64,000 nt of DNA from Psilocybe cubensis (taxonomy: Eukaryota). Of the stretch, positions 14,989 to 57,536 are shown piece by piece. The DNA lies in the NCBI GenBank assembly GCA_017499595.2, contig CM038999.1:1736001-1800000 (forward strand). The letters run 5' to 3'. The first letter of the stretch is position 1, and each line of letters begins with the position of its first letter. Below the pieces are notes generated by a model, which ran no database searches, was not told the DNA's origin, and saw nothing but the letters and a program-made list of their open reading frames with translations. Position numbers and translations under genes: made by a program.

Positions 14989-17900
14989 ATGTCTCCATCT
15001 CCAGAGCAGCCTCCACCCGTACCCTCAACCTCCACTCAACCTGAAGGTCCACCTGTGAGGGTCAAAAAGCGACGCCTTCATGGCTCCTGCGATGCATGTC
15101 GCAAGAAAAAGAGTACGCTGATCTGATCCTCGCACACATTGGCGTTCGCTGATTGGCGCATGCATCAGCGAAATGTACGAGCCCTAGTATCTGTTAGCTC
15201 TGTTTTAGTTGAAAGCCATACTCAAGGCGATAGTGCAAATATGCCCGATAATCATTGCACCAACTGTCGGGTACTAAATGTTCCTTGTCAGCACACGGCG
15301 CCTCGCCTGGGAAAGGTATTTATCTTTAGTACTCTACGCGTCTGGCTACCTAATCCGCCATCCATGAACAACAGAAGAAAAAGGAGGTCCAGAACAGGTA
15401 GCGCCCGTGATCCAATAGAATGTAGAGCGAGTGTTAAGTCCCGTTTCTTAGTGCTGGATATATCCGACGACTCGAAGAAAGACTGGAAAAGATGGAGCGT
15501 CTCTTGGAAAAACAAGGCAGCCCAGAGACCGCAAACATAGACAACTCTGCGGACAGCATACAACAATATTCCTCATTCTCAGACACCAAGGAAGATGGTA
15601 CACGAGCGTTTACACCGCCGAAAAAGCTTGTCGGCGCTCGACTAGAGCCATCCTCTGCCACCTCTGATGACTCGTCCGATCCTGACGATCTTGCCCATGT
15701 CGCTCTTTCGGAACATCTGAGTTCGTTGTCAATTGGCGAAGCTGTCGATGATCGGTTCTTTGGCAAGTCTAGGTGCGTATCGTTGACGCTCCATCAAACT
15801 TTCCGACAATAGTCTAATTATCCTGCGACCGTCTTCAGCGCCTTCATGTTTGTTAAAGAGGCCTCGTCCGTTCGCCATGAAACTACCAGAGGTACCATCT
15901 TACCAGATCGAACAAAATTCAGAAGACCGATATATTGGGATGTCCGACCCGTATGTTCGTGCAGTTGCCATTCCAGTGTTGTCCCTTATTTAGTTCCCGC
16001 AGTGGGAAGCGTCATTATCATCGTCCTTTCAACCAGGCTACATCTATCCTGAAGTTGGTCTGTTACAGACTCTGGTATCTCTTTACTTTGAGAAGATGAA
16101 TACGATCTTTCCTATACTCCATCAGCCCACTTTTCTCAAAGCTTTATCCCAAAATCAGCATCATTGGGATCCGGCTTTTGGTATGACAGTCCTCCTTGTC
16201 TGCGCCATTGGTTCTCGGTATACAAATGACCCACGGGTAATTGTACCTGAGGACAAACACGGACTATCTTCAGGATGGCCGTACTTTTCGCAGGTTCAGA
16301 TATATCGCAACCCATTACTTCTTAATTCAACTATATATGACTTACAATACTTTGTTGTACGTATGTTTTTACTATCTAATTTACCTGGCTAATGAAGCGA
16401 TAATTTCACTAGCTCGCTATTCTTTATCTCAGTGGGACTTCGGTTCCTCAAGCCTCGTGGAATCTGATTGGACTGGGAATGCGCCAGGTACTTGAAAAAG
16501 GCATTCATCGTCGCAGGGGATCATCTGCTAGGCCGAGCAAGGACGAAGAACTTTTGAAACGCACATTTTGGTGGGGGATGATTCTTCCGAGAGTGTGCCT
16601 GTGTATCATTGGTTGATATACGTTTTACAGGGTTCTGGTCGTGATAGACCGCCTGAAAAGTTCATTTCTTGGTCGACCATGTTGTATTCAAGAAGAGGAG
16701 TACGTTTCGCATCTAGCATTTTCAAGTTGCTCTAATCTGCGAATAGTATTGATGTCGATTACCCTGTCGAATGCGATGACGAGTATTGGGAAACGGACGA
16801 TCCCCAAAATGCATTTCAGCAGCCTGACAACAAACCATGCAAAATATCAAGTTTCATACGGCTGATAAAGCTAACAGAGATTCTTTCTATGGCGTTACGT
16901 ACTTTGTATGCAACAAAGAAGAACAAGAGAATTGCGGGCTATAACGGAGAAGAATGGGAACGCCGGGTGGTTGTCGAACTTGATTCATCCCTGAATAACT
17001 GGAAGGACTCTCTTCCGAGCTACTGTAAATGTGAATGTCTGATCAGATTTTTGACTTTGCTCACATCTGGCTTTGTACCTTTTTAGTAAAGTGGGACCCT
17101 AATATCTCGGATTCGACGCTCTTTCATCAGGCCTCACTACTACATGCGACGTTCAACTATGTTCAAATTCTTGTGCATCGGCCATTTTTAACAAAAAAGT
17201 CTTCAATGTCTTTCCCATCCCTCGCAATGTGCACCAACGCCGCACGATCATGCATTCATGCACTGGATGCTGCGAGGATAAAAGGCATGCGTCCTACCCA
17301 CCACCTACTGGTACCGATATTATCCTCTCTATTTTTAAACTGATAAAATTAATGCCCATTGGTTATCTCTGTGGTATATATAGGTCTGCGCGTTCTCATC
17401 CGGAATCGTCATTATTCTTAACCTCTGGAGCCACCGTCATACAACCGGGTTGATAACCGATCCAGCAAAAGAAGCTGATCTTCAAATGTGTATCAACGTA
17501 CTCAAAGATTGTGACAAAAAGTTAGTCATCTGAACTCACTGATGCATATCCCTATATTTTCTCATTCTCTCATCCAGGTGGCATGTTGCTGGACGATTTT
17601 GGTATGGAGCTAAACCGTTAAACTCGTTGATTTTTATTGATACTTTCGTACTTCAAAACAGTGATATGTTGAATGAAGTTGGTGCTCTTAGCGAATGCCA
17701 ACCAACCTCAATTATGAAACAACCTCGTAATACTTCAATCGTAGAGGACACTATCGGCGGGCATTCTATTGCAACGATGTCCCCGTATTCTTATTCTTCC
17801 TCCTCAAGCGCTAGAGTAGGGCATATCGTTCCAGAATTCCCCAATATCGATAAATCTGGTGAAACACTGAACGGGCCCGCGGATATATTTGGTAAACATA

Positions 17901-18949: not shown

Positions 18950-21900
18950 ATGACAGATGATTCTATCGTAGACTCTGGAACAACGGGAGAAAGCCAAATC
19001 CAGAAGGTCAAGAAAAGACGTTTACATGGAGCATGCGATGCCTGTCGCAAAAAGAAAAGTTTGTGCTCTCTAATCCAATTCCAGGTTGGGCGCTACTGAC
19101 ATCGTTATCCAATAGTAAAATGTAACTTCTGGAAAACTCCCATTTAGTCATCGAAAGGCTGATCAACATTCTAGGCGATAGCGCTGAAATGCCTGGAAAG
19201 GTGTGCACTAATTGCCAAGTTGCAAATTTGCATTGCAGTCATGATATACCTCGTCCGCCAAAGGTAGGAATAATATCTCTGCCATTTCTCGAACAAGGTC
19301 ACGAACGCGTTTTAATTTGCAGAAGTCGGAGGTGCAGCAAGCGTAAGTTCCAGGCTCACACGTATGGGCAGAGTTTTGAACAACACATTTACGTTTTTAG
19401 TTATATCCGCAGCTTGGAAGAAAAAGTAGAAAAGATGCAACGCTATTTTGAACTGGTATATTTGTAATGTCGCCTTTTGTGATTTCATGTTCAATTTGAT
19501 ATCTAGCAACACGCAGGAGAAGACATTGACGACGTTGTCAACATGGCTGCAACCGCTTCGAGACCCGCAAGCTTTTTTGGAGCCACAAGTTTGGCCGATT
19601 CCTGTGACAAACCCGACTCCGTCAAGTATCCCATCCCTAAACACGTATACACCTCTTTACCAAAGGGTAAAAAGACTGAAGACGACTCAGATGCGTCAGA
19701 TTCCGATGATTTGGCTCACATAGCATTGGCTCACCATCTGGATGGTCTTCCTCTAAATGCTGTTGAAGAAAAATATTTTGGGCCTTCTAGGTGACCTAAT
19801 GCCGTCTCAACTATCTGACAACCAAAGTCTGATCTTTTGACAGTTCATTTATGTTCACCAAGCATGCGTCAACCGTGAAAAATCAATTCACTGGATCTCC
19901 GAACAAATTAGATGCTGCGCGGTATAGGCGACCGATTTTCTGGGACATGAGGCCGGTGAGCATGACCACTGTTTAAAGGTATTACTGTCTTGCTGAATAT
20001 CAGTTAGTGGGAAACGGAATATGCCCTAGCTCCCGAAACCTCTTACATCTATCCGGAGAATGATCTTCTACAAAGCCTAGTTTCTCTATATTTTGAAAAG
20101 ATGAACCCTCTCCTTCCGGTAATACATCGACCTTCATTCATGAAATCATTGTCAATTGGACAGCATTTATGGGACCAATCGTTTGGGATGACTGTCTTGT
20201 TGGTTTGTGCACTTGGGGCACGATATTCTCATGACCCTCGAATAACTGTGCCTTCAGAATCTAACGGATGGTTATCTTCTGGATGGGAATACTTCTCTCA
20301 GATCCCTCTAGTTCACCGACGTATCATGGTTTATAAAACCACGGTATATGATCTACAATATTTCAGCGTATGTTTAATATTCTTTCCTCGTCATAAGTAC
20401 ATTACTAAACCAAATTGTCCAGCTTGCGTCACAGTATCTGGTTGGTACATCCATTTCACATGTTTCATGGACTATTTTGGCCTTTGGACTACGATATGCC
20501 GTCGAGAAAGGGTTGCACCGCCGCATGGGACCGAATGAAAAACCGACTCCTCAACGTGAAATGCAAAAACGCGCATTTTGGTATGTCATTCTAATGCAGA
20601 TTATTGTCGTCAACTTACGCAATTTATCAAGGGCAATGGTATGCGTAGATCGCATTATGAGCGCCTTTCTAGGCCGTCCTTGTACCCTCATGGACGAAGA
20701 GTGCGTTATACTATAAATGACTATGAACCTCTTTAATCGAATCTGCTGCTTTCCAATAGGATTGACGTAGAACTTCCCATTGAATGTGACGATGAATATT
20801 GGGAAACAGAAGATCCGCAAAAGGCTTTTCAACAACCATTTGGAATACCGTGCTCAGTCAGCAATTTTATCTACTATATACGAATTTGTGAAATTCTTGG
20901 ATTTGCTCTGAGGACCTTATATTCCACAAAAAAATCGAAGATTCTGTCAGGTCTCATTGGAAATGATTGGGAGGGCCGTATTGTCGCGGAGCTAGATTCG
21001 TCTCTGAATTCATGGAAGGACTCTTTGCCCAAACACCGTTCGTTGTTCTCCCTTGTCATAGTGTAACAAATTCTCAACTCCTTTCCAAAGTGCGCTGGGA
21101 TGCTGAGAGGCAGGACCCCACTTTCTTCCATCAGTCGGCGGTATTGCATTCGTTATATTACTATACACAGATTCAAGTGCACCGTCCCTTCTTATCGAAG
21201 AAGTCGCCACTGTCGTTTTCTTCTCTCGCTATGTGTACGAATGCTGCTCGTTCATGTACACACGTTTTAGAAGCAACTTTGTCTCGGGGTGCTCGTGTTT
21301 TCCCTGATATCATTGTTTGTGATGCTACTATTTGATGGACAATGATATGATATGAACTAACCAACCTCTTTAGATGGCATCGTTTACAGCAGGTCTCGTT
21401 ATCGTACTCAATTTATGGGGTAACCAAAGGTCAGGTTTGATAGGAAATCCCACTCAAGAAATAGAGAACCTTCATAAATGCGTGAATGTTCTCCGAGAAT
21501 GCGAAAAGAGGTGCACATGATTGTATTCTTTACTCTGTCCTGTTCTAACATACCATTAGATGGCACGTCGCAGGTAGATTGTGGTATTTCTGTGCTTTTC
21601 ACTTATTAAATTCAAAATTCTTACAACATAACCCAGTGATATTTTGAACGAAGTCGGTGCTCTACATGAATACCAGCCAACAGCCAGCAAGCGTCGCCGA
21701 GACATTTCTTCTTCCGAATCATCAGGATTGCTCCAAATATCACCGATAAACACATTTAATCCCTTGATAGATGGATCTGGTCCGTCGTATTCCCCTAATT
21801 CAGAGGAGCAAGCAGCATCTACCGCAACAAATAATCTCGTCCCAGCGTTCGACCCAACGATGAACGATTGGGAGCTGCGAGATCTGCTATTTATGGGAAT

Positions 21901-23080: not shown

Positions 23081-26000
23081 ATGCCTAACAGTTCTTCCCC
23101 TGTATCCGACTATCAAGATACACAAAAGATCAAAAAGCGCCGTCTACAAGGAGCATGCGACGAATGCCGAAGGAAAAAAAGTATGTATAGCATACACCTA
23201 TTGGATGCCAAATTATTGAAATTACATGACTTGCCTGTCAGCCAAATGTATGGTCCCATCCTTTCATTCGGGATAGATCAAGACACTCACCTTAGACTAC
23301 AGGTGATAGTGCAGAGAAACCCGGGAATTTTTGTACAAATTGTGAATTATCCAACATCTTGTGCAGTCATGATATGCCACGACAGCCCAAGGTAACATAT
23401 TCACCGGCTTTTTTGCGATTATGGTCGATTAATAAATCTCAAATTATTACAGAAAACCGAAACGCAGCAAGCGTAAGTGATAGAGGATACCCAAACTCAG
23501 AACATCATTGACGTTGTGTGGACATAGCTATATCATGGTCTTAGAAGAAAGAATAGAGAAATTGGAGGCTTACATTCGAAAAGTAAAGCATCGAGTTCAG
23601 GATAGTGCTATTAACGGTTGCTCACAATTCATTTCAGATGCATCCAGGAGAGGATATTGACCATATACTCAGCATCCCGCCCGATAAAATTGCCCAAGTT
23701 CCTTCCATTCCTAACCTTGCATCTGTTTCCAGCACTGAAACAAATCTCAGTTCCTTTGCCTTTTCCGACCTCAAATATGCTATCCCTGTATCCATTTCTT
23801 CGGACACGACCCCTCCTCCTTTGGTAGAGAATGATTCAGAGATACTAGAAGCGGATGATTTGGCTCATGTAGCTCTTGCTGAACACCTTGGTCGGCTCTC
23901 TTTAAGCGCAGTTGACGATCGATTCTTCGGTCAAGCCAGGTATGTAAGTCGAATTAAACAAATAAATGTCTGATTGACCTTCAAGTTAAAGCGCATTCAT
24001 GTTTGCCAAAGATGCAGCAAACGTGAAAAGTTCAATCACTGGCGAATCCTCTGCGCCGGATATTAGAAATTATAGGCGTCCGCTTTTCTGGGACATGAGA
24101 CCGGTATGTATTTCAAGCACGTTTTTTCACCAGAATATTTAAATGAAATCTATTTAGTGGGAACTGACTTTCGCTACATCACCGGAGACTTCTTACGTTT
24201 ATCCTGAGGATGATTTACTTCAATCTCTTATTTCACTGTACTTCGACAAAGTGAATTGTGTACTTCCTGTCCTTCACCAACCAACGTTTATGAAGTCGTT
24301 ATCAATTGGCCAACACCACTGGGACCCATCCTTTGGAATGATTGTTCTTCTAGTTTGCGCTATTGGATCACGATATTCTCACGACCATCGAGTTACGGTC
24401 CCAAATGATGCATCTGGTCTATCTTCCGGATGGCATTATTTTTGCCAAGTCCCTATCCACCGAAAGATTATGCTTTACAAGGCGAACATTCACGATCTAC
24501 AATACTATTGCGTAAGACGGTTTGATGATAACACGTTTTCAATCTCTAATTAAATTTACTACATTAGCTTGCTCCATTGTACCTCGTTGGAACCTCTATG
24601 CCTCATGCTGCGTGGAATATCTTGGGTATTGGCATAAGATACGCGTTAGAAAAGGGCGCACATCGCCGAAAAGGCCAAAATCAGAAGCCTACTGTTGAAG
24701 ATGAGCTCCGAAAGCGCGCCTTTTGGTAAGCGCTCTGTGATGACACATATATTTTACTAATTCTCCCATCTATTGCAGGTGTATGATTTGTTTAGATCGT
24801 TTAATTAATTCATTCGTTGGTCGACAATGTGGACTTCCACATGAAGCGTATGTGTTCTAGGATATACGTGCCAGAATGCTAAATTGACTCACCTCCTAGT
24901 TTTGACGTTGAGTACCCCATAGATTGTGATGACGAATATTGGGAGACAGAAGACCCGGAACAAGCTTTCAAGCAACCAACGGGAAAGCCCTCTATGATAA
25001 CAGGTTTCATATGTTTTATCAAACTCTGCGAAATCCTTGGTTTTGCGTTGAGGACATTGTACACTACCAAAAAGTCTAAACTCCTCTCGGGCTTCATTGG
25101 AAGTGAGTGGGAGGGGCGTATGGTTGCAGAACTCGACTCGGCTATGAATGGGTGGAAAGATTCACTTCCTCCTCATCGTAAGCCATTTTTATTTATTTCC
25201 ATTCATTAACTAACAGCATGATATAGTGCGGTGGGATCCTAATACCCAAAATCCAGCTTTCTTTTCCCAATCCGTCAACCTGAATTCCACCTTCTTCTAC
25301 GTACAGATACAAATTCATCGACCTTTTCTAACCAAGAAATCACCATTATCATTTCCGTCTCTAGCTATGTGTACCAACGCTGCAAGATCATGTACTCATG
25401 TCTTGGAAGCAGGAATGACTAGGGGCCTTTGTATCCTTCCAAACACAATGGTCTGTTACCTGTGTTCATTCATCCGGTAACTTACCTATCTAAAATCCAT
25501 TAATTAGACCGCTGCTTTCACAGCTGGCATCATCATCGCTCTCGGTCTATGGAGTGGACAACGCTCTGGTTATATTAGTGACCCCGAGAAAGAAAGGCAA
25601 AGTCTCCAGAAATGTTTGAATGTCCTCGAATATGCTGAAAAACGGTCGGTCTGTATCTCTCTATAGTTTTAACTATTCGTTAACAACCATTCATTGTTCC
25701 CACCCTGTCCCAGATGGCATTGCGGTGGTCGACTCAGGTATATTTTCAAATAGTTTGGTTGAGTTACTTTAAATCCATTTATCAAACAGGGACATGCTGC
25801 GAGAAGTCAGCGCTATCCAGGAGTATCACCCAACTGATATCAGTAAGCGTCGACACGATTCTATTGAGGGGTCACCCGAGTCTGAGGCTACGACGCTCCA
25901 TCAATCTTTGGAGGCCACTTTGCCGTCTTCAGTTGTCACTGAGCCAGTAAACGAATCAACCCTCCGAAAATTATTGCTTACAGAAATGGGCTACGTATTC

Positions 26001-54604: not shown

Positions 54605-55177
54605 TACTTAGAGACTATCTTTTTTCCACAATATCAACGACAGTTAACTAAACACTACACTTCTTGAGGGTTTTCCTCCTAGATACTCTTGCACTTTTTT
54701 TTTGTTTCTTGGTACTTATACATACTCACCCCAGCTGTATTTTATGTCTCGTTTTAGCCGTAGGGAGATACCAACACATGCGTTTTTTTTGGTATCTACG
54801 CGTAGTTGCTTTTGTTTGTAGTATTTTTTATGAATTTGATAACGTTAGGGAGAGGAGTGATCCTGATGGGTTTCTGTTGTAGCCTCTGCCCCCTAGCTCG
54901 TCCTGCCATTTGTGGAATATCACTTGCCTAATGAGGCAATGTCTCGTTTAGTGGACTTTCAGGGTTTTTGTTTATATCTGGGCATATAGGAACAAACCAG
55001 TTATGAGTAGTATGTGCCACTTCTCTTGTATCTTGGAGGCGCCATCAGGGATTTGCTGCATATTCGGAATTGTTGACGCGAAAAATGGGCTACGTCATAG
55101 TTGAACAAAACCTGCTAGCCGTGCATGGGCAAGCCTCGGGCAAAGTCACCACACCATATAGTCGCAACCTTTTCACT

Positions 55178-55766
55178 TCAGCTAGAAAAGAGCTCCATTA
55201 TGCTCCTTTCGTGAGCCGGCTTCTTTTCAAGATATTCTCGCCTTCCTCTCAACCAGCAATTCGCCGTGTACGAAGCATACATGGACGACGTCGGAAACTA
55301 CACCCGCGCTAAAAATACACGCGCAGCGCGACTTTTCAACCGACCTACTAGCCACGGCCCAATGATAGCTGTAAAGACCATCTGCGTCAAACCCGAGGAA
55401 TTCGCAATAAAGGCTCTCCACTACGAGCATCTCACCGCAAACGAGCTTGCGGGTGTGCCTTTCCAAGCCAAAAGGACGTCGTCATGTCCGTTGAACTGAG
55501 AGTGGTTGGTCATGTACCGGATGCTTTAGTTCCGTGTTAGCGCTTTGAAACAAGATTGGGCTTACTACTGCGAGATGCTCGTCGGTGACTAGGATTTCGG
55601 GGCATTCTCTTTCGCATTGCAGAACCTCGCATACAACGTCACCAAACGACTTTCCCGGAGGAAAATGGATGTTCATTTCTTCTATAGGGCGTTCCGGTGT
55701 GGAGTCATCCGGAATGAATAAACATTGCATATCGCGAATCGCGTTAGAGGGACCGCTGGACGTCAT
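55178..55766 (-). pseudogene. Third paralogue of the small-protein family, disrupted in this sequence by an internal 235-bp inversion (55241-55475)
   Basis: Exon 1 (55766-55566, CLFIPDDSTPERPIEE...LAV) and both ends of exon 2 are on the minus strand, but the middle of exon 2 (AVYEAYMDDVGNYTRAKNTRAARLFNRPTSHGPMIAVK) reads on the plus strand. Confidence 0.8.
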
Positions 55767-56119
55767 TTTGACTTTAGTAATATTGGTCAATGAAAGTCAA
55801 TGTCAATGCTAGTTAATATGCAGTGAAATGCGTCGTACCCGGATCACGATGCAGGGATTGAGGAGAGTAGTTCCGATGTGACAGTGAAATGAAGAAAGTT
55901 TGACTTGTCTCCGCGCTCCATGCACATTCTGTGAGTCATTCCGGACTTTCTTGACTCAGTGTAATGATTAGGAAATGAGGTCTCTGATGGGGAAGACCTT
56001 ATTTGGCACCTCCAACTAGCTTCATTATGAATAAAATACTTTTCTGAAAAAGAAACTGTACGGGCGGTGACATAAAACATATGAGGGATGGACATGGCGG
56101 AATACTTTACGTCAACAAG

Positions 56120-56715
56120 CTATGAAGAGATTACAGTGAAGCCATCATTTCGGTACTTGTCAAACAGGCGTTTCTTGTACGCGTCTTGCTTCTCTATGAA
56201 CAACTTTCTTTTGTCTCGAAAAGCCCGACTCTCGATCTCTGCTTCGGATAGGGGCTCTTGATCTATCACTCGTACTGCACCGATTTCCGAGTCCTTGACA
56301 CAGACACCTTTGACGATGAGGATGGGTCCATAACTTCTAGGAAGTTGTAACAGCTCTGCAGCGCGAGTATTATATGGTCGTGTGGAGTTGCCAGTGTCGT
56401 CCATGTACGCGTCATAAACGTAGAATTTCTGCTTTGGTGGGACACCGCTGGGACTACCGTTGTACTATCGTCACAGAAGTCAAGACGGAATTGGCGGAGG
56501 GTATGGAAGAAAAAAAGACTGACAACAGCGAGTAGATCTTCCGAGTAAAGAGGTTCGGCCACTCTTCCAGGACATTTCAGTAATTGACTGATGATGGCAT
56601 TAGACTCCTGTGAGGAGGGAGGATACGGGATGTTGACCTCCGATATGGGATTGAATGGGGTAGAATCGTCTGGGATAAAAAGAGCTGGTATTTCGTGACT
56701 GAGATTAGTAGTCAT
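56120..56715 (-). CDS. Small uncharacterised protein, tandem family member 2
   Basis: Two exons: ALFIPDDSTPFNPISE...LLAV | YNGSPSGVPPKQKFYVYDAYMDDTGNSTRPYNTRAAELLQLPRSYGPILIVK... Confidence 0.75.
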
Positions 56716-56956
56716 GGTAGATATAGTAGCACAGAAATTAGAGTAACGAAGGTGAACCTAGCACGTCGGAGACATACAGTGTTTACAAACCTGAGACACC
56801 TTTCGCCTCACAGACGCGCGTCAAGCATCAGAAAAAAAGGTGTCATTTCCGTTCAGATTGCAGATAATTGTGACTGCTCGCGTCAAGGTAAGACATTATG
56901 TGAATCGAGGCGTGTTCAGGATCTTACCACCAATACAAATAAAAACAGTGTTCAAT

Positions 56957-57536
56957 TTACAGTGTAAGTACAACGACGCCTTGCTTCCTTTGGTCTTCAA
57001 TCATACGAGCCATATACGCCTCTCTCTTTTGGATGAAATCTTGTCTTTTTTCTTGGAAGTCTGTGCCCTCAAGTTCACGTTCAAGACCAACCGAATCTTC
57101 GTAATGGCGAAGGACTGCGTCAACCCGCTGCTTTTTGTAAACAGCTTTGAAAATTAGCATAGGTCCATGGCTTTTCGGTCGACGGAGAAGCCTAGCTGCC
57201 CGTGAATTAAGTGGGCGTGTTGCATTGCCATTTTCATCCATGGTAGCAACGTAAATTGTGAATTCTGTGCCGGTTGGGAGTCCATTTCCATGGCCTTCAA
57301 ACTATCAATGTCATGGAATTCAGCGCAAGCCAATGAATAAATGCGGTTTAACTTACGATTGCGAGGTATTCAGGAGAAAGGATGGTCTCATCTTCAGCAA
57401 GCTCACATTTCAGAAGTTGATGGACGCGTTGAGTGAATTGTTCAACAGAAGGAGCACTGATGGTTTTCTGCTCGATGGGTTGGTTAGGACTGGAGTCGTC
57501 CGGAATATACAGGTAAGTCCGTTGAACAGAGGGCAT
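56957..57536 (-). CDS. Small uncharacterised protein, tandem family member 1
   Basis: Two exons: YLYIPDDSSPNQPIEQ...YLAI | FEGHGNGLPTGTEFTIYVATMDENGNATRPLNSRAARLLRRPKSHGPMLIFK... Confidence 0.75.

What the first reader, a model, noticed from the sequence alone, without database searches (positions are those of the whole stretch)
55241..55475. Precise 235-bp intragenic inversion bounded by CCTT/AAGG; flipping it restores an intact ORF
Seen in sequence: the minus-strand gene from 55766 splices (intron 55565-55496) into exon 2 as FNGHDDV, matching FEGHGNGL and YNGSPSGV in the two neighbouring paralogues, and then loses similarity. The missing middle is on the plus strand at 55241-55475 (LPLNQQFAVYEAYMDDVGNYTRAKNTRAARLFNRPTSHGPMIAVK...LAGVPFQAKR). 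The minus strand resumes at 55240 with REYLEKKPAHERSIMELFSS*, which aligns to RKLFIEKQDAYKKRLF and RQDFIQKREAYMARMI in the paralogues. The segment starts with CCTT (55241-44) and ends with AAGG (55472-75). Reverse-complementing it gives ...GAC GTC CTT CCT CTC...GCC AAA AGG CGA GAA... with no indel or internal stop, a 172-aa ORF. Inference: this is a very recent microhomology-mediated (template-switch) inversion, a polymorphic or reversible on/off switch for this gene copy, or an assembly artefact. A 4-bp repeat is short for a recombinase site and no recombinase gene is visible in the window, so a programmed switch is the least likely option but the most interesting.
Basis: partly seen in the sequence, partly recalled or inferred. 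Interest (0 to 1): 0.85.

Follow-up and report, generated by a model that had tools for sequence, protein, structure and literature searches.

The report
Fixed small inversion breaking a gene
A 235-base piece in the middle of one copy of a small mushroom gene family has been flipped in place, which breaks that copy; every independent data set examined shows only the flipped form, so it is an ordinary one-off mutation, not a genetic switch or an assembly error.

Summary
The minus-strand gene at 55178-55766 has its middle 78 codons on the plus strand (55242-55475). Flipping 55241-55475 in silico gives a 172-codon frame colinear with the two tandem paralogues. The segment is bounded by a 4-bp inverted repeat, which 1.6% of random 235-bp segments also show. 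The inversion is real and fixed. It is seen in an independent 53.8-kb contig across both junctions, in contigs of two other runs across one junction each, and in about 35-40x raw Illumina reads of a heterozygous strain. No joint and no loose end lies at either junction. This excludes an assembly artefact. It also excludes a polymorphism or an active switch down to roughly 8% of reads. As it stands the gene encodes 91 residues, about half of what AlphaFold predicts to be a single domain. The most likely reading is a one-off, short-inverted-repeat-mediated microinversion that made a pseudogene. It is recent relative to the age of the paralogue but older than the sampled strains. A public plus-strand gene model covers the flipped piece. 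Whether that model is expressed could not be tested. The family has no Pfam family and no clear match to a solved fold.

The parts
55566..55766 (-). Exon 1 of the broken gene copy (g1), 67 codons from the ATG. It carries the family's N-terminal L-F-I-P-D-D-S-x-P motif.
   Evidence: It is 38-40% identical to exon 1 of the two paralogues. No variant was seen here in the 3 of 4 laid runs that cover it (X6, X9, X11); X10 has no depth on 55541-55852.
55496..55565 (-). 70-nt intron of g1 (GTAAGC ... CTCAG).
   Evidence: It sits at the same position as the introns of the paralogues.
55476..55495 (-). Head of exon 2 (FNGHDD plus two bases of the V codon), up to the right breakpoint.
55241..55475 (+). 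The inverted 235-bp segment. Its plus-strand frame 55242-55475 encodes the 78-residue conserved core of the family.
   Evidence: It keeps 9 of the 10 invariant or nearly invariant columns of the 35-member family alignment.
55241..55244 (.). Left arm (CCTT) of the 4-bp inverted repeat at the breakpoint.
55472..55475 (.). Right arm (AAGG) of the 4-bp inverted repeat at the breakpoint.
55421..55423 (-). Premature stop in the present arrangement. The product would be 91 residues: 74 native and 17 unrelated.
55178..55240 (-). Tail of exon 2 (20 codons REYLEKK...FSS plus the TGA stop), now cut off from the rest of the frame.
55085..55499 (+). Public plus-strand gene model (P0003, 122 aa). Exon 55085-55210, 46-nt GT..AG intron 55211-55256, exon 55257-55499. 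It fuses 42 residues read antisense to the old 3' end to the flipped core.
   Evidence: One search gives an exact match to the window. One search shows it held as an uncharacterised protein by UniRef only. Its expression was not tested.
56120..56715 (-). Intact tandem paralogue g2 (178 aa; exons 56524-56715 and 56120-56464).
   Evidence: It is letter-identical to P0035.
56957..57536 (-). Intact tandem paralogue g3 (174 aa; exons 57357-57536 and 56957-57301).
   Evidence: It is letter-identical to P0001.

Best explanation
One of three tandem copies of a small, uncharacterised agaric-mushroom gene suffered a single in-place inversion of 235 bp. No base was gained or lost. The event ran between two 4-bp inverted copies (CCTT/AAGG). 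The likely route is a replication template switch or microhomology-mediated repair of breaks, that is, the mechanisms proposed for microinversions; this step is inferred. The flip puts the conserved core on the wrong strand, so the minus-strand message now ends after 91 residues, about half of a single-domain protein. The copy is therefore most likely a young pseudogene, while the two neighbouring copies stay intact. The inverted state is fixed: it is the only form in all strains and haplotypes examined (shown). It happened late in the life of this old paralogue, because the three separated pieces still carry no stop, no frameshift and nearly all family-wide conserved residues (shown). It still predates the common ancestor of the sampled strains (shown).
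For: Sequence: the flip restores a 172-residue frame colinear with g2 (178 aa) and g3 (174 aa), without a gap at either junction. The junction motif K-R|R-E-Y reappears as in relative P0034. X6, an independent study, has a 53,790-letter contig covering 54985-55950 with 2 differences, across both junctions. X9, under another organism label, has a contig covering 54800-55481 across the left junction. X10 has a contig covering 55293-55512 across the right junction, with 37 letters beyond it. X11 is raw paired Illumina reads from a fourth study. Its depth is about 41 at the left junction bin and about 34 at the right, with no dip. It is heterozygous at flanking and internal sites, with 0 joints and loose ends only at 54944-54964 and 55100. 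Five further runs hold all 121 sampled words of the stretch. The edge microhomology of 4 bp occurs in 1.6% of random segments. There is no recombinase, integrase or transposase family among 58 ORFs of 130 aa or more. The AlphaFold model of paralogue g2 (pLDDT 94.2, pTM 0.87) is one alpha/beta domain. Its strands lie on both sides of the left breakpoint (residues 71/72), and the right breakpoint falls inside the C-terminal helix (150/151). Conserved residues are retained at 9 of 10 positions. In the literature, all 59 human-chimpanzee microinversions are flanked by inverted repeats of 3-75 nt, 28 of them of 4-7 nt (PMC8755829; abstract and section 6 read).
Against: No non-inverted allele or orthologue of this copy was found, so the ancestral state rests on paralogues and distant relatives. 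Loss of function is inferred, because no RNA or protein data could be examined. A public annotation places a plus-strand gene on the flipped piece. The mechanism cannot be read from one event, and a 4-bp repeat arises by chance 1.6% of the time. Reads would not have revealed the other orientation below about 3 reads in 35-40. In X9 the right junction lies 6 nt from a contig end and is not bridged. The primate microinversions used for comparison are 17-33 nt, and this one is 235 bp.
Confidence: 0.85

Rival explanations
1. The inversion created a new gene. The flipped core is now expressed from the plus strand as a 122-residue chimera (public model P0003), using a new start, a new 46-nt intron and a new promoter in the old 3' flank. 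The minus strand keeps a 91-residue N-terminal fragment. One gene is thus split into two convergent, overlapping ones.
For: The plus-strand frame is open for 94 codons (55215-55499), beyond both breakpoints. An ATG at 55085 and canonical GT..AG at 55211/55256 join it to a 42-codon frame. A public record carries exactly this protein.
Against: The model is held by UniRef only, while g2 and g3 are also held by NCBI. Its first exon is antisense to the old 3' end and varies among strains: a 3-bp deletion in 13 of 37 reads, N>S, A>T and one silent change within 42 codons. The family fold is predicted as a single domain that needs the N-terminal strands. Gene predictors are drawn to any long frame with coding composition. 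No RNA data could be examined.
Confidence: 0.08
2. A reversible or polymorphic on/off inversion. Cells or strains flip the segment at low frequency, or under conditions not sampled.
For: The flip is exact and would restore the frame, and short inverted repeats bound it. Reads could not exclude a minority below about 8%.
Against: None of the 4 laid runs shows the other form. There are 0 joints and 0 loose ends at the junctions in about 35-40x raw reads, and both haplotypes of a heterozygous strain are inverted. The repeat is only 4 bp. None of 58 long ORFs matches a recombinase. I recall no programmed chromosomal inversion of this size from fungi; the mating-type flip-flops of methylotrophic yeasts, also recalled and not checked here, use kilobase repeats.
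Confidence: 0.03
3. An assembly or polishing artefact of the record from which the window comes.
For: None beyond the oddity of the structure.
Against: Raw reads of an unrelated study lie continuously over both junctions. Independent contig sets of three other runs also bridge them.
Confidence: 0.01
4. Not an in-place flip. Instead the middle of the gene was replaced by an inverted copy from another family member, by gene conversion or insertion.
For: Tandem paralogues lie 0.4 and 1.2 kb away.
Against: The segment is only 46-47% identical in protein to either neighbour, and no third copy lies in the window. Its length and phase fit the gap exactly, with no duplicated or missing residue against the paralogues. 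The exhaustive search found no closer relative.
Confidence: 0.02

Closest known systems
Microinversions flanked by short inverted repeats (human-chimpanzee set; PMC8755829, abstract and section 6 read)
   Same: The segment is copied exactly as its reverse complement, without gain or loss. Inverted repeats sit directly at the edges. A 4-nt repeat falls in that paper's commonest class (28 of 59 have 4-7 nt). Template switching and microhomology-mediated break-induced replication are the mechanisms proposed there.
   Different: Those events are 17-33 nt and mostly non-coding. This one is 235 bp, lies inside a coding exon of a fungus, and no non-inverted sister sequence is at hand.
Short template-switch mutations and MMBIR/FoSTeS rearrangements (PMC5453318, PMC7954356, PMC2621351; search listing and start of abstracts only)
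   Same: It is a replication-based route that yields inverted stretches joined at a few bases of microhomology.
   Different: Template-switch events as listed there are mostly tens of bases and often leave clustered substitutions. MMBIR events are usually complex, with copy-number change. Here the outcome is a clean balanced inversion.
Bacterial intragenic invertons (PMC10028968; search listing and start of abstract only)
   Same: A flipped segment inside a coding sequence changes the protein that is made.
   Different: In those, both orientations coexist and an invertase acts on longer inverted repeats (my recollection of the paper's content). Here one orientation is fixed, the repeat is 4 bp and no recombinase is near.
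Unitary or duplicated-gene pseudogenes in tandem families
   Same: One copy of a tandem family is disabled while its neighbours stay intact.
   Different: The lesion is a balanced inversion, not the usual stop, frameshift or deletion, so every codon is still present.

Membership tests
Short-inverted-repeat-flanked microinversion | The segment is the exact reverse complement of the ancestral sequence, in place, with no bases gained or lost. | tested here: met
   The flip gives a frame colinear with two paralogues and with relatives, without a gap at either junction. The test is indirect, because no non-inverted allele was available.
Short-inverted-repeat-flanked microinversion | Inverted repeats lie at or within a few bases of both edges. 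| tested here: met
   CCTT lies at 55241-55244 and AAGG at 55472-55475, exactly 4 bp. Of 200,000 random segments, 3,210 do as well. No longer repeat lies at the edges.
Short-inverted-repeat-flanked microinversion | Size of tens of bases, as in the described primate set. | tested here: not met
   This one is 235 bp, against 17-33 nt in PMC8755829. This is a matter of that study's search criteria more than of mechanism.
Programmed invertible element (inverton, recombinase switch) | Both orientations coexist within a strain or population. | tested here: not met
   None of the 4 laid runs shows the other form, and there are no joints or loose ends at the junctions in about 35-40x raw reads. The detection limit is about 8%.
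Programmed invertible element (inverton, recombinase switch) | Inverted repeats long enough for a recombinase, roughly 10-30 bp (recalled). | tested here: not met
   There are 4 bp only.
Programmed invertible element (inverton, recombinase switch) | A site-specific recombinase is encoded nearby. | tested here: not met
   None of 58 ORFs of 130 aa or more in the 64-kb window matches a recombinase, integrase or transposase Pfam family at E <= 1e-5. The rest of the genome is not held.
Pseudogene | The reading frame is disrupted relative to intact family members. | tested here: met
   The present frame is 91 residues, 74 of them native, against 172-178 in the family. It holds about half of a predicted single domain.
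Pseudogene | No functional product, and relaxed constraint. | not testable with these tools
   No RNA holder is listed. There are only 3 exonic variants among the runs, two silent and one A>V, which is too few for a test.
DUF3846 (PF12957), as a home for the gene family | A match to the Pfam profile. | tested here: inconclusive
   None of 35 family members matches PF12957 at E <= 1. The Atlas search gives 29 of 30 feature hits in DUF3846-bearing clusters at score 0.90, and TM 0.47-0.48 by query. This is a lead only.

The most novel reading that the evidence does not exclude
The inversion did not simply kill the gene. It split a single-domain gene into two convergent, overlapping genes. The flipped conserved core is expressed from the plus strand with a newly recruited start codon, intron and promoter, as in public model P0003. 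That would be a datable case of gene birth by intragenic inversion.
Probability: 0.07. Interest if true: 0.6.

Novelty: new member of a known kind. Interest (0 to 1): 0.2.

Why it matters
This is a very clean natural example of a balanced, base-exact inversion inside an exon, bounded by 4 bp of inverted microhomology. It is larger than the microinversions catalogued in primates and it lies in a fungus. It shows how such a lesion misleads annotation: a public record carries a plus-strand 'gene' that is most likely the flipped middle of a broken minus-strand gene. It gives no support for programmed DNA inversion in mushrooms. It also draws attention to a small uncharacterised agaricomycete protein family that is confidently predicted to fold but has no Pfam family and no clear match to a solved fold.

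Tried and rejected
The whole genome of the window is not held, so other copies and distant recombinases could not be sought.

No RNA holder is listed among the runs. Two possible RNA runs held next to none of the words, so expression could not be examined.

Word-based protein searches for full-length orthologues found nothing, neither with the flipped core (longer forms) nor with exon 1 (longer forms). A profile search found 8 proteins, none of them an orthologue of this copy. In the tree of 17 rows the copy is a lone unresolved branch of length 0.87. The event therefore could not be dated against a sister species.

Rescue by splicing was tested. There are 14 in-frame GT..AG combinations that could skip the flipped piece, but all of them delete the conserved core.

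Longer inverted repeats at the breakpoints were sought and none found. The 9-nt and 11-nt pairs in the region do not sit at both edges.

Pfam gave no family for the gene pieces or for the full-length relatives, apart from TPR in the long forms.

Foldseek against the PDB gave 0 matches at E <= 0.001; the best was HEN1 3htx_A at E 0.014 and TMq 0.41. The wide structural search gave 1 of 48,161 chains at Z >= 5: 3htx_D, Z 5.4, rmsd 3.3, 112 residues aligned. That is too weak to name a fold.

Earlier findings of the scan gave nothing by place, by words or by sequence.

A literature search on the species' genome was read as a listing only and added nothing on this locus.

Full report
**Observation**

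The window holds three tandem minus-strand copies of a small two-exon gene. They are g1 at 55178-55766, g2 at 56120-56715 and g3 at 56957-57536.

In g1, exon 1 (55566-55766) and the 70-nt intron (55496-55565, GTAAGC...CTCAG) are normal, and exon 2 starts FNGHDDV at 55495. From 55475 downwards the minus strand loses all likeness to the family.

The missing 78 codons are on the plus strand at 55242-55475. They match the minus-strand paralogues at E 1.4e-19 and 3.5e-17, with 47% and 46% identity. The minus strand resumes at 55240 with the family's tail. That tail matches relatives' tails, for example P0034 at E 8e-7 in a small local search.

Reverse-complementing 55241-55475 in a script gives a 172-residue frame. 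It is colinear with g2 (178 aa) and g3 (174 aa) and has no gap at either junction. The segment begins CCTT and ends AAGG. The complementarity is exactly 4 bp, and 3,210 of 200,000 random 235-bp segments of the window (1.6%) reach 4 bp or more.

**Is it real, and is it fixed?**

Fourteen public runs were listed for 54800-55950. Ten hold the stretch or a part of it, and five hold all 121 sampled words. Four runs were laid.

| Run | Kind | What covers the junctions |
|---|---|---|
| X6 | contigs, independent study | a 53,790-letter contig covers 54985-55950 with two differences, across both junctions in the inverted arrangement |
| X9 | contigs, another organism label | a contig covers 54800-55481 and bridges the left junction |
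| X10 | contigs | a short contig covers 55293-55512 and bridges the right junction by 37 letters |
| X11 | raw paired Illumina reads, a fourth study | depth about 41 at the left junction bin and about 34 at the right, no dip |

- In X9 the contig ends 6 nt past the right junction, which does not count as bridging. The next contig starts at 55494.
- X11 is heterozygous at several sites, for example 22 of 43 reads at 54855 and 27 of 35 at 55438.
- X11 shows no joint at all. Its loose ends lie only at 54944-54964 and at 55100, far from the junctions.

The inversion is thus not an assembly artefact. It is present on both haplotypes of a heterozygous strain, and it is the only form seen in 4 of 4 laid runs. 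A minority orientation below about 3 reads in 35-40 cannot be excluded.

**What the gene is**

g3 and g2 are letter-identical to proteins that public records name as hypothetical proteins of *Psilocybe cubensis*.

The family is small. A profile search of 1.84 billion representatives gave 32 proteins at E <= 0.001, 17 of them at E <= 1e-10. Named members come from *Psilocybe cyanescens*, *Pholiota*, *Hypholoma* and *Cyclocybe*. In 10 of 35 members the domain is preceded by TPR repeats.

No Pfam family matches. AlphaFold predicts g2 with pLDDT 94.2 and pTM 0.87 as one alpha/beta domain followed by a long C-terminal helix. The structure searches found nothing convincing:
- Foldseek gave no PDB match at E <= 0.001.
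- The wide search gave only HEN1 residues 213-351, at Z 5.4.
- The protein-atlas look-alikes point to DUF3846 (score 0.90, TM 0.47-0.48), but 0 of 35 members match that profile.

**What the inversion does**

In g2 numbering the breakpoints fall between residues 71/72, in a loop before the fourth strand, and between 150/151, inside the C-terminal helix. As it stands the minus-strand frame stops at 55421-55423 after 91 residues, 74 of them native. That is about half of a single domain, so loss of function is the likely result. This step is inferred.

Fourteen in-frame GT..AG combinations could splice out the flipped piece, but all of them remove the conserved core.

g1 is an old, lone branch of the family tree (branch length 0.87, no resolved sister). 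Yet its three separated pieces carry no stop or frameshift and keep 9 of the 10 family-wide conserved positions. The lesion is therefore young relative to the copy, though older than the common ancestor of the sampled strains. Variants among the runs within the exons are too few to test constraint: two are silent and one is A>V.

**Mechanism**

No recombinase, integrase or transposase family is found among the 58 ORFs of 130 aa or more in the window, and no longer inverted repeat lies at the breakpoints.

A balanced, base-exact flip between 4-bp inverted copies is what is described for microinversions. In the human-chimpanzee set all 59 are flanked by inverted repeats of 3-75 nt, 28 of them of 4-7 nt. 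Template switching and microhomology-mediated break-induced replication are the mechanisms discussed there (PMC8755829; abstract and section 6 read). I adopt that class of mechanism as the most likely.

Religation of two 4-base-staggered breaks with compatible overhangs would fit equally well. That idea is my own inference from the known stagger of type II topoisomerases, and it is untested. One event cannot tell these routes apart.

**The plus-strand model**

A public protein (P0003, 122 aa, held by UniRef only) is exactly the plus-strand reading: 55085-55210, a 46-nt GT..AG intron, then 55257-55499.

It is most likely a by-product of gene prediction on the flipped coding piece:
- Its first exon is antisense to the old 3' end.
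- That exon varies among strains, with a 3-bp deletion in 13 of 37 reads and two replacements.
- The product would lack the N-terminal strands of the predicted domain.

Expression could not be tested, so a new chimeric gene remains the most novel reading not excluded (about 7%).

**Verdict**

This is a real, fixed, one-off microhomology-flanked inversion that most likely made a pseudogene of one tandem copy. It is a clean new example of a known kind of mutation. It is not a switch and not an artefact.

Noticed in passing
window 56120-57536 and proteins P0001-P0037: The gene family is uncharacterised. It has 32 relatives in 1.84 billion representatives and no Pfam family, yet it gives a very confident single-domain AlphaFold model (pLDDT 94.2). 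Ten of 35 members carry N-terminal TPR repeats. Weak leads point to DUF3846 (atlas score 0.90) and to HEN1 residues 213-351 (Z 5.4).
   Followed up: partly
window 54923-55008: The intergenic stretch 3' of the broken gene is highly divergent among strains. It has 15 listed substitution sites and six small insertions in X9. In X11, 21 reads have loose ends at 54944. This suggests a replaced or inserted block on one haplotype.
   Followed up: no
window 55284-55292 and 55475-55483: There is a perfect 9-nt inverted repeat (GACGACGTC / GACGTCGTC), one arm inside the flipped piece and one at the right junction. Before the flip these were direct repeats, both coding D-D-V. No rearrangement between them was seen in the reads.
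   Followed up: partly
window 55141-55180: The restored g1 frame ends 6-10 residues before the G-G-x-V-x-x-L tail of most relatives. A weak out-of-frame match to that tail (RLYGVVTL against RKQGVVVL, E 0.42 in a tiny search) lies at 55141-55164 (-). This hints at a possible second lesion or simply a shorter tail.
   Followed up: partly
window 55482-55493: In run X9 the two contigs end at 55481 and begin at 55494, just beside the right junction. Nearby variants (55478 in X10; 55513 and 55514 in X9 and X11) could explain the break as a heterozygous bubble. This was not resolved.
   Followed up: no
window 15994-16389, 20008-20535, 24158-24550: Three plus-strand ORFs about 4 kb apart each match the start of the fungal-specific transcription factor domain (PF04082, E 4e-8 to 5e-7). 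They look like another tandem paralogue set.
   Followed up: no
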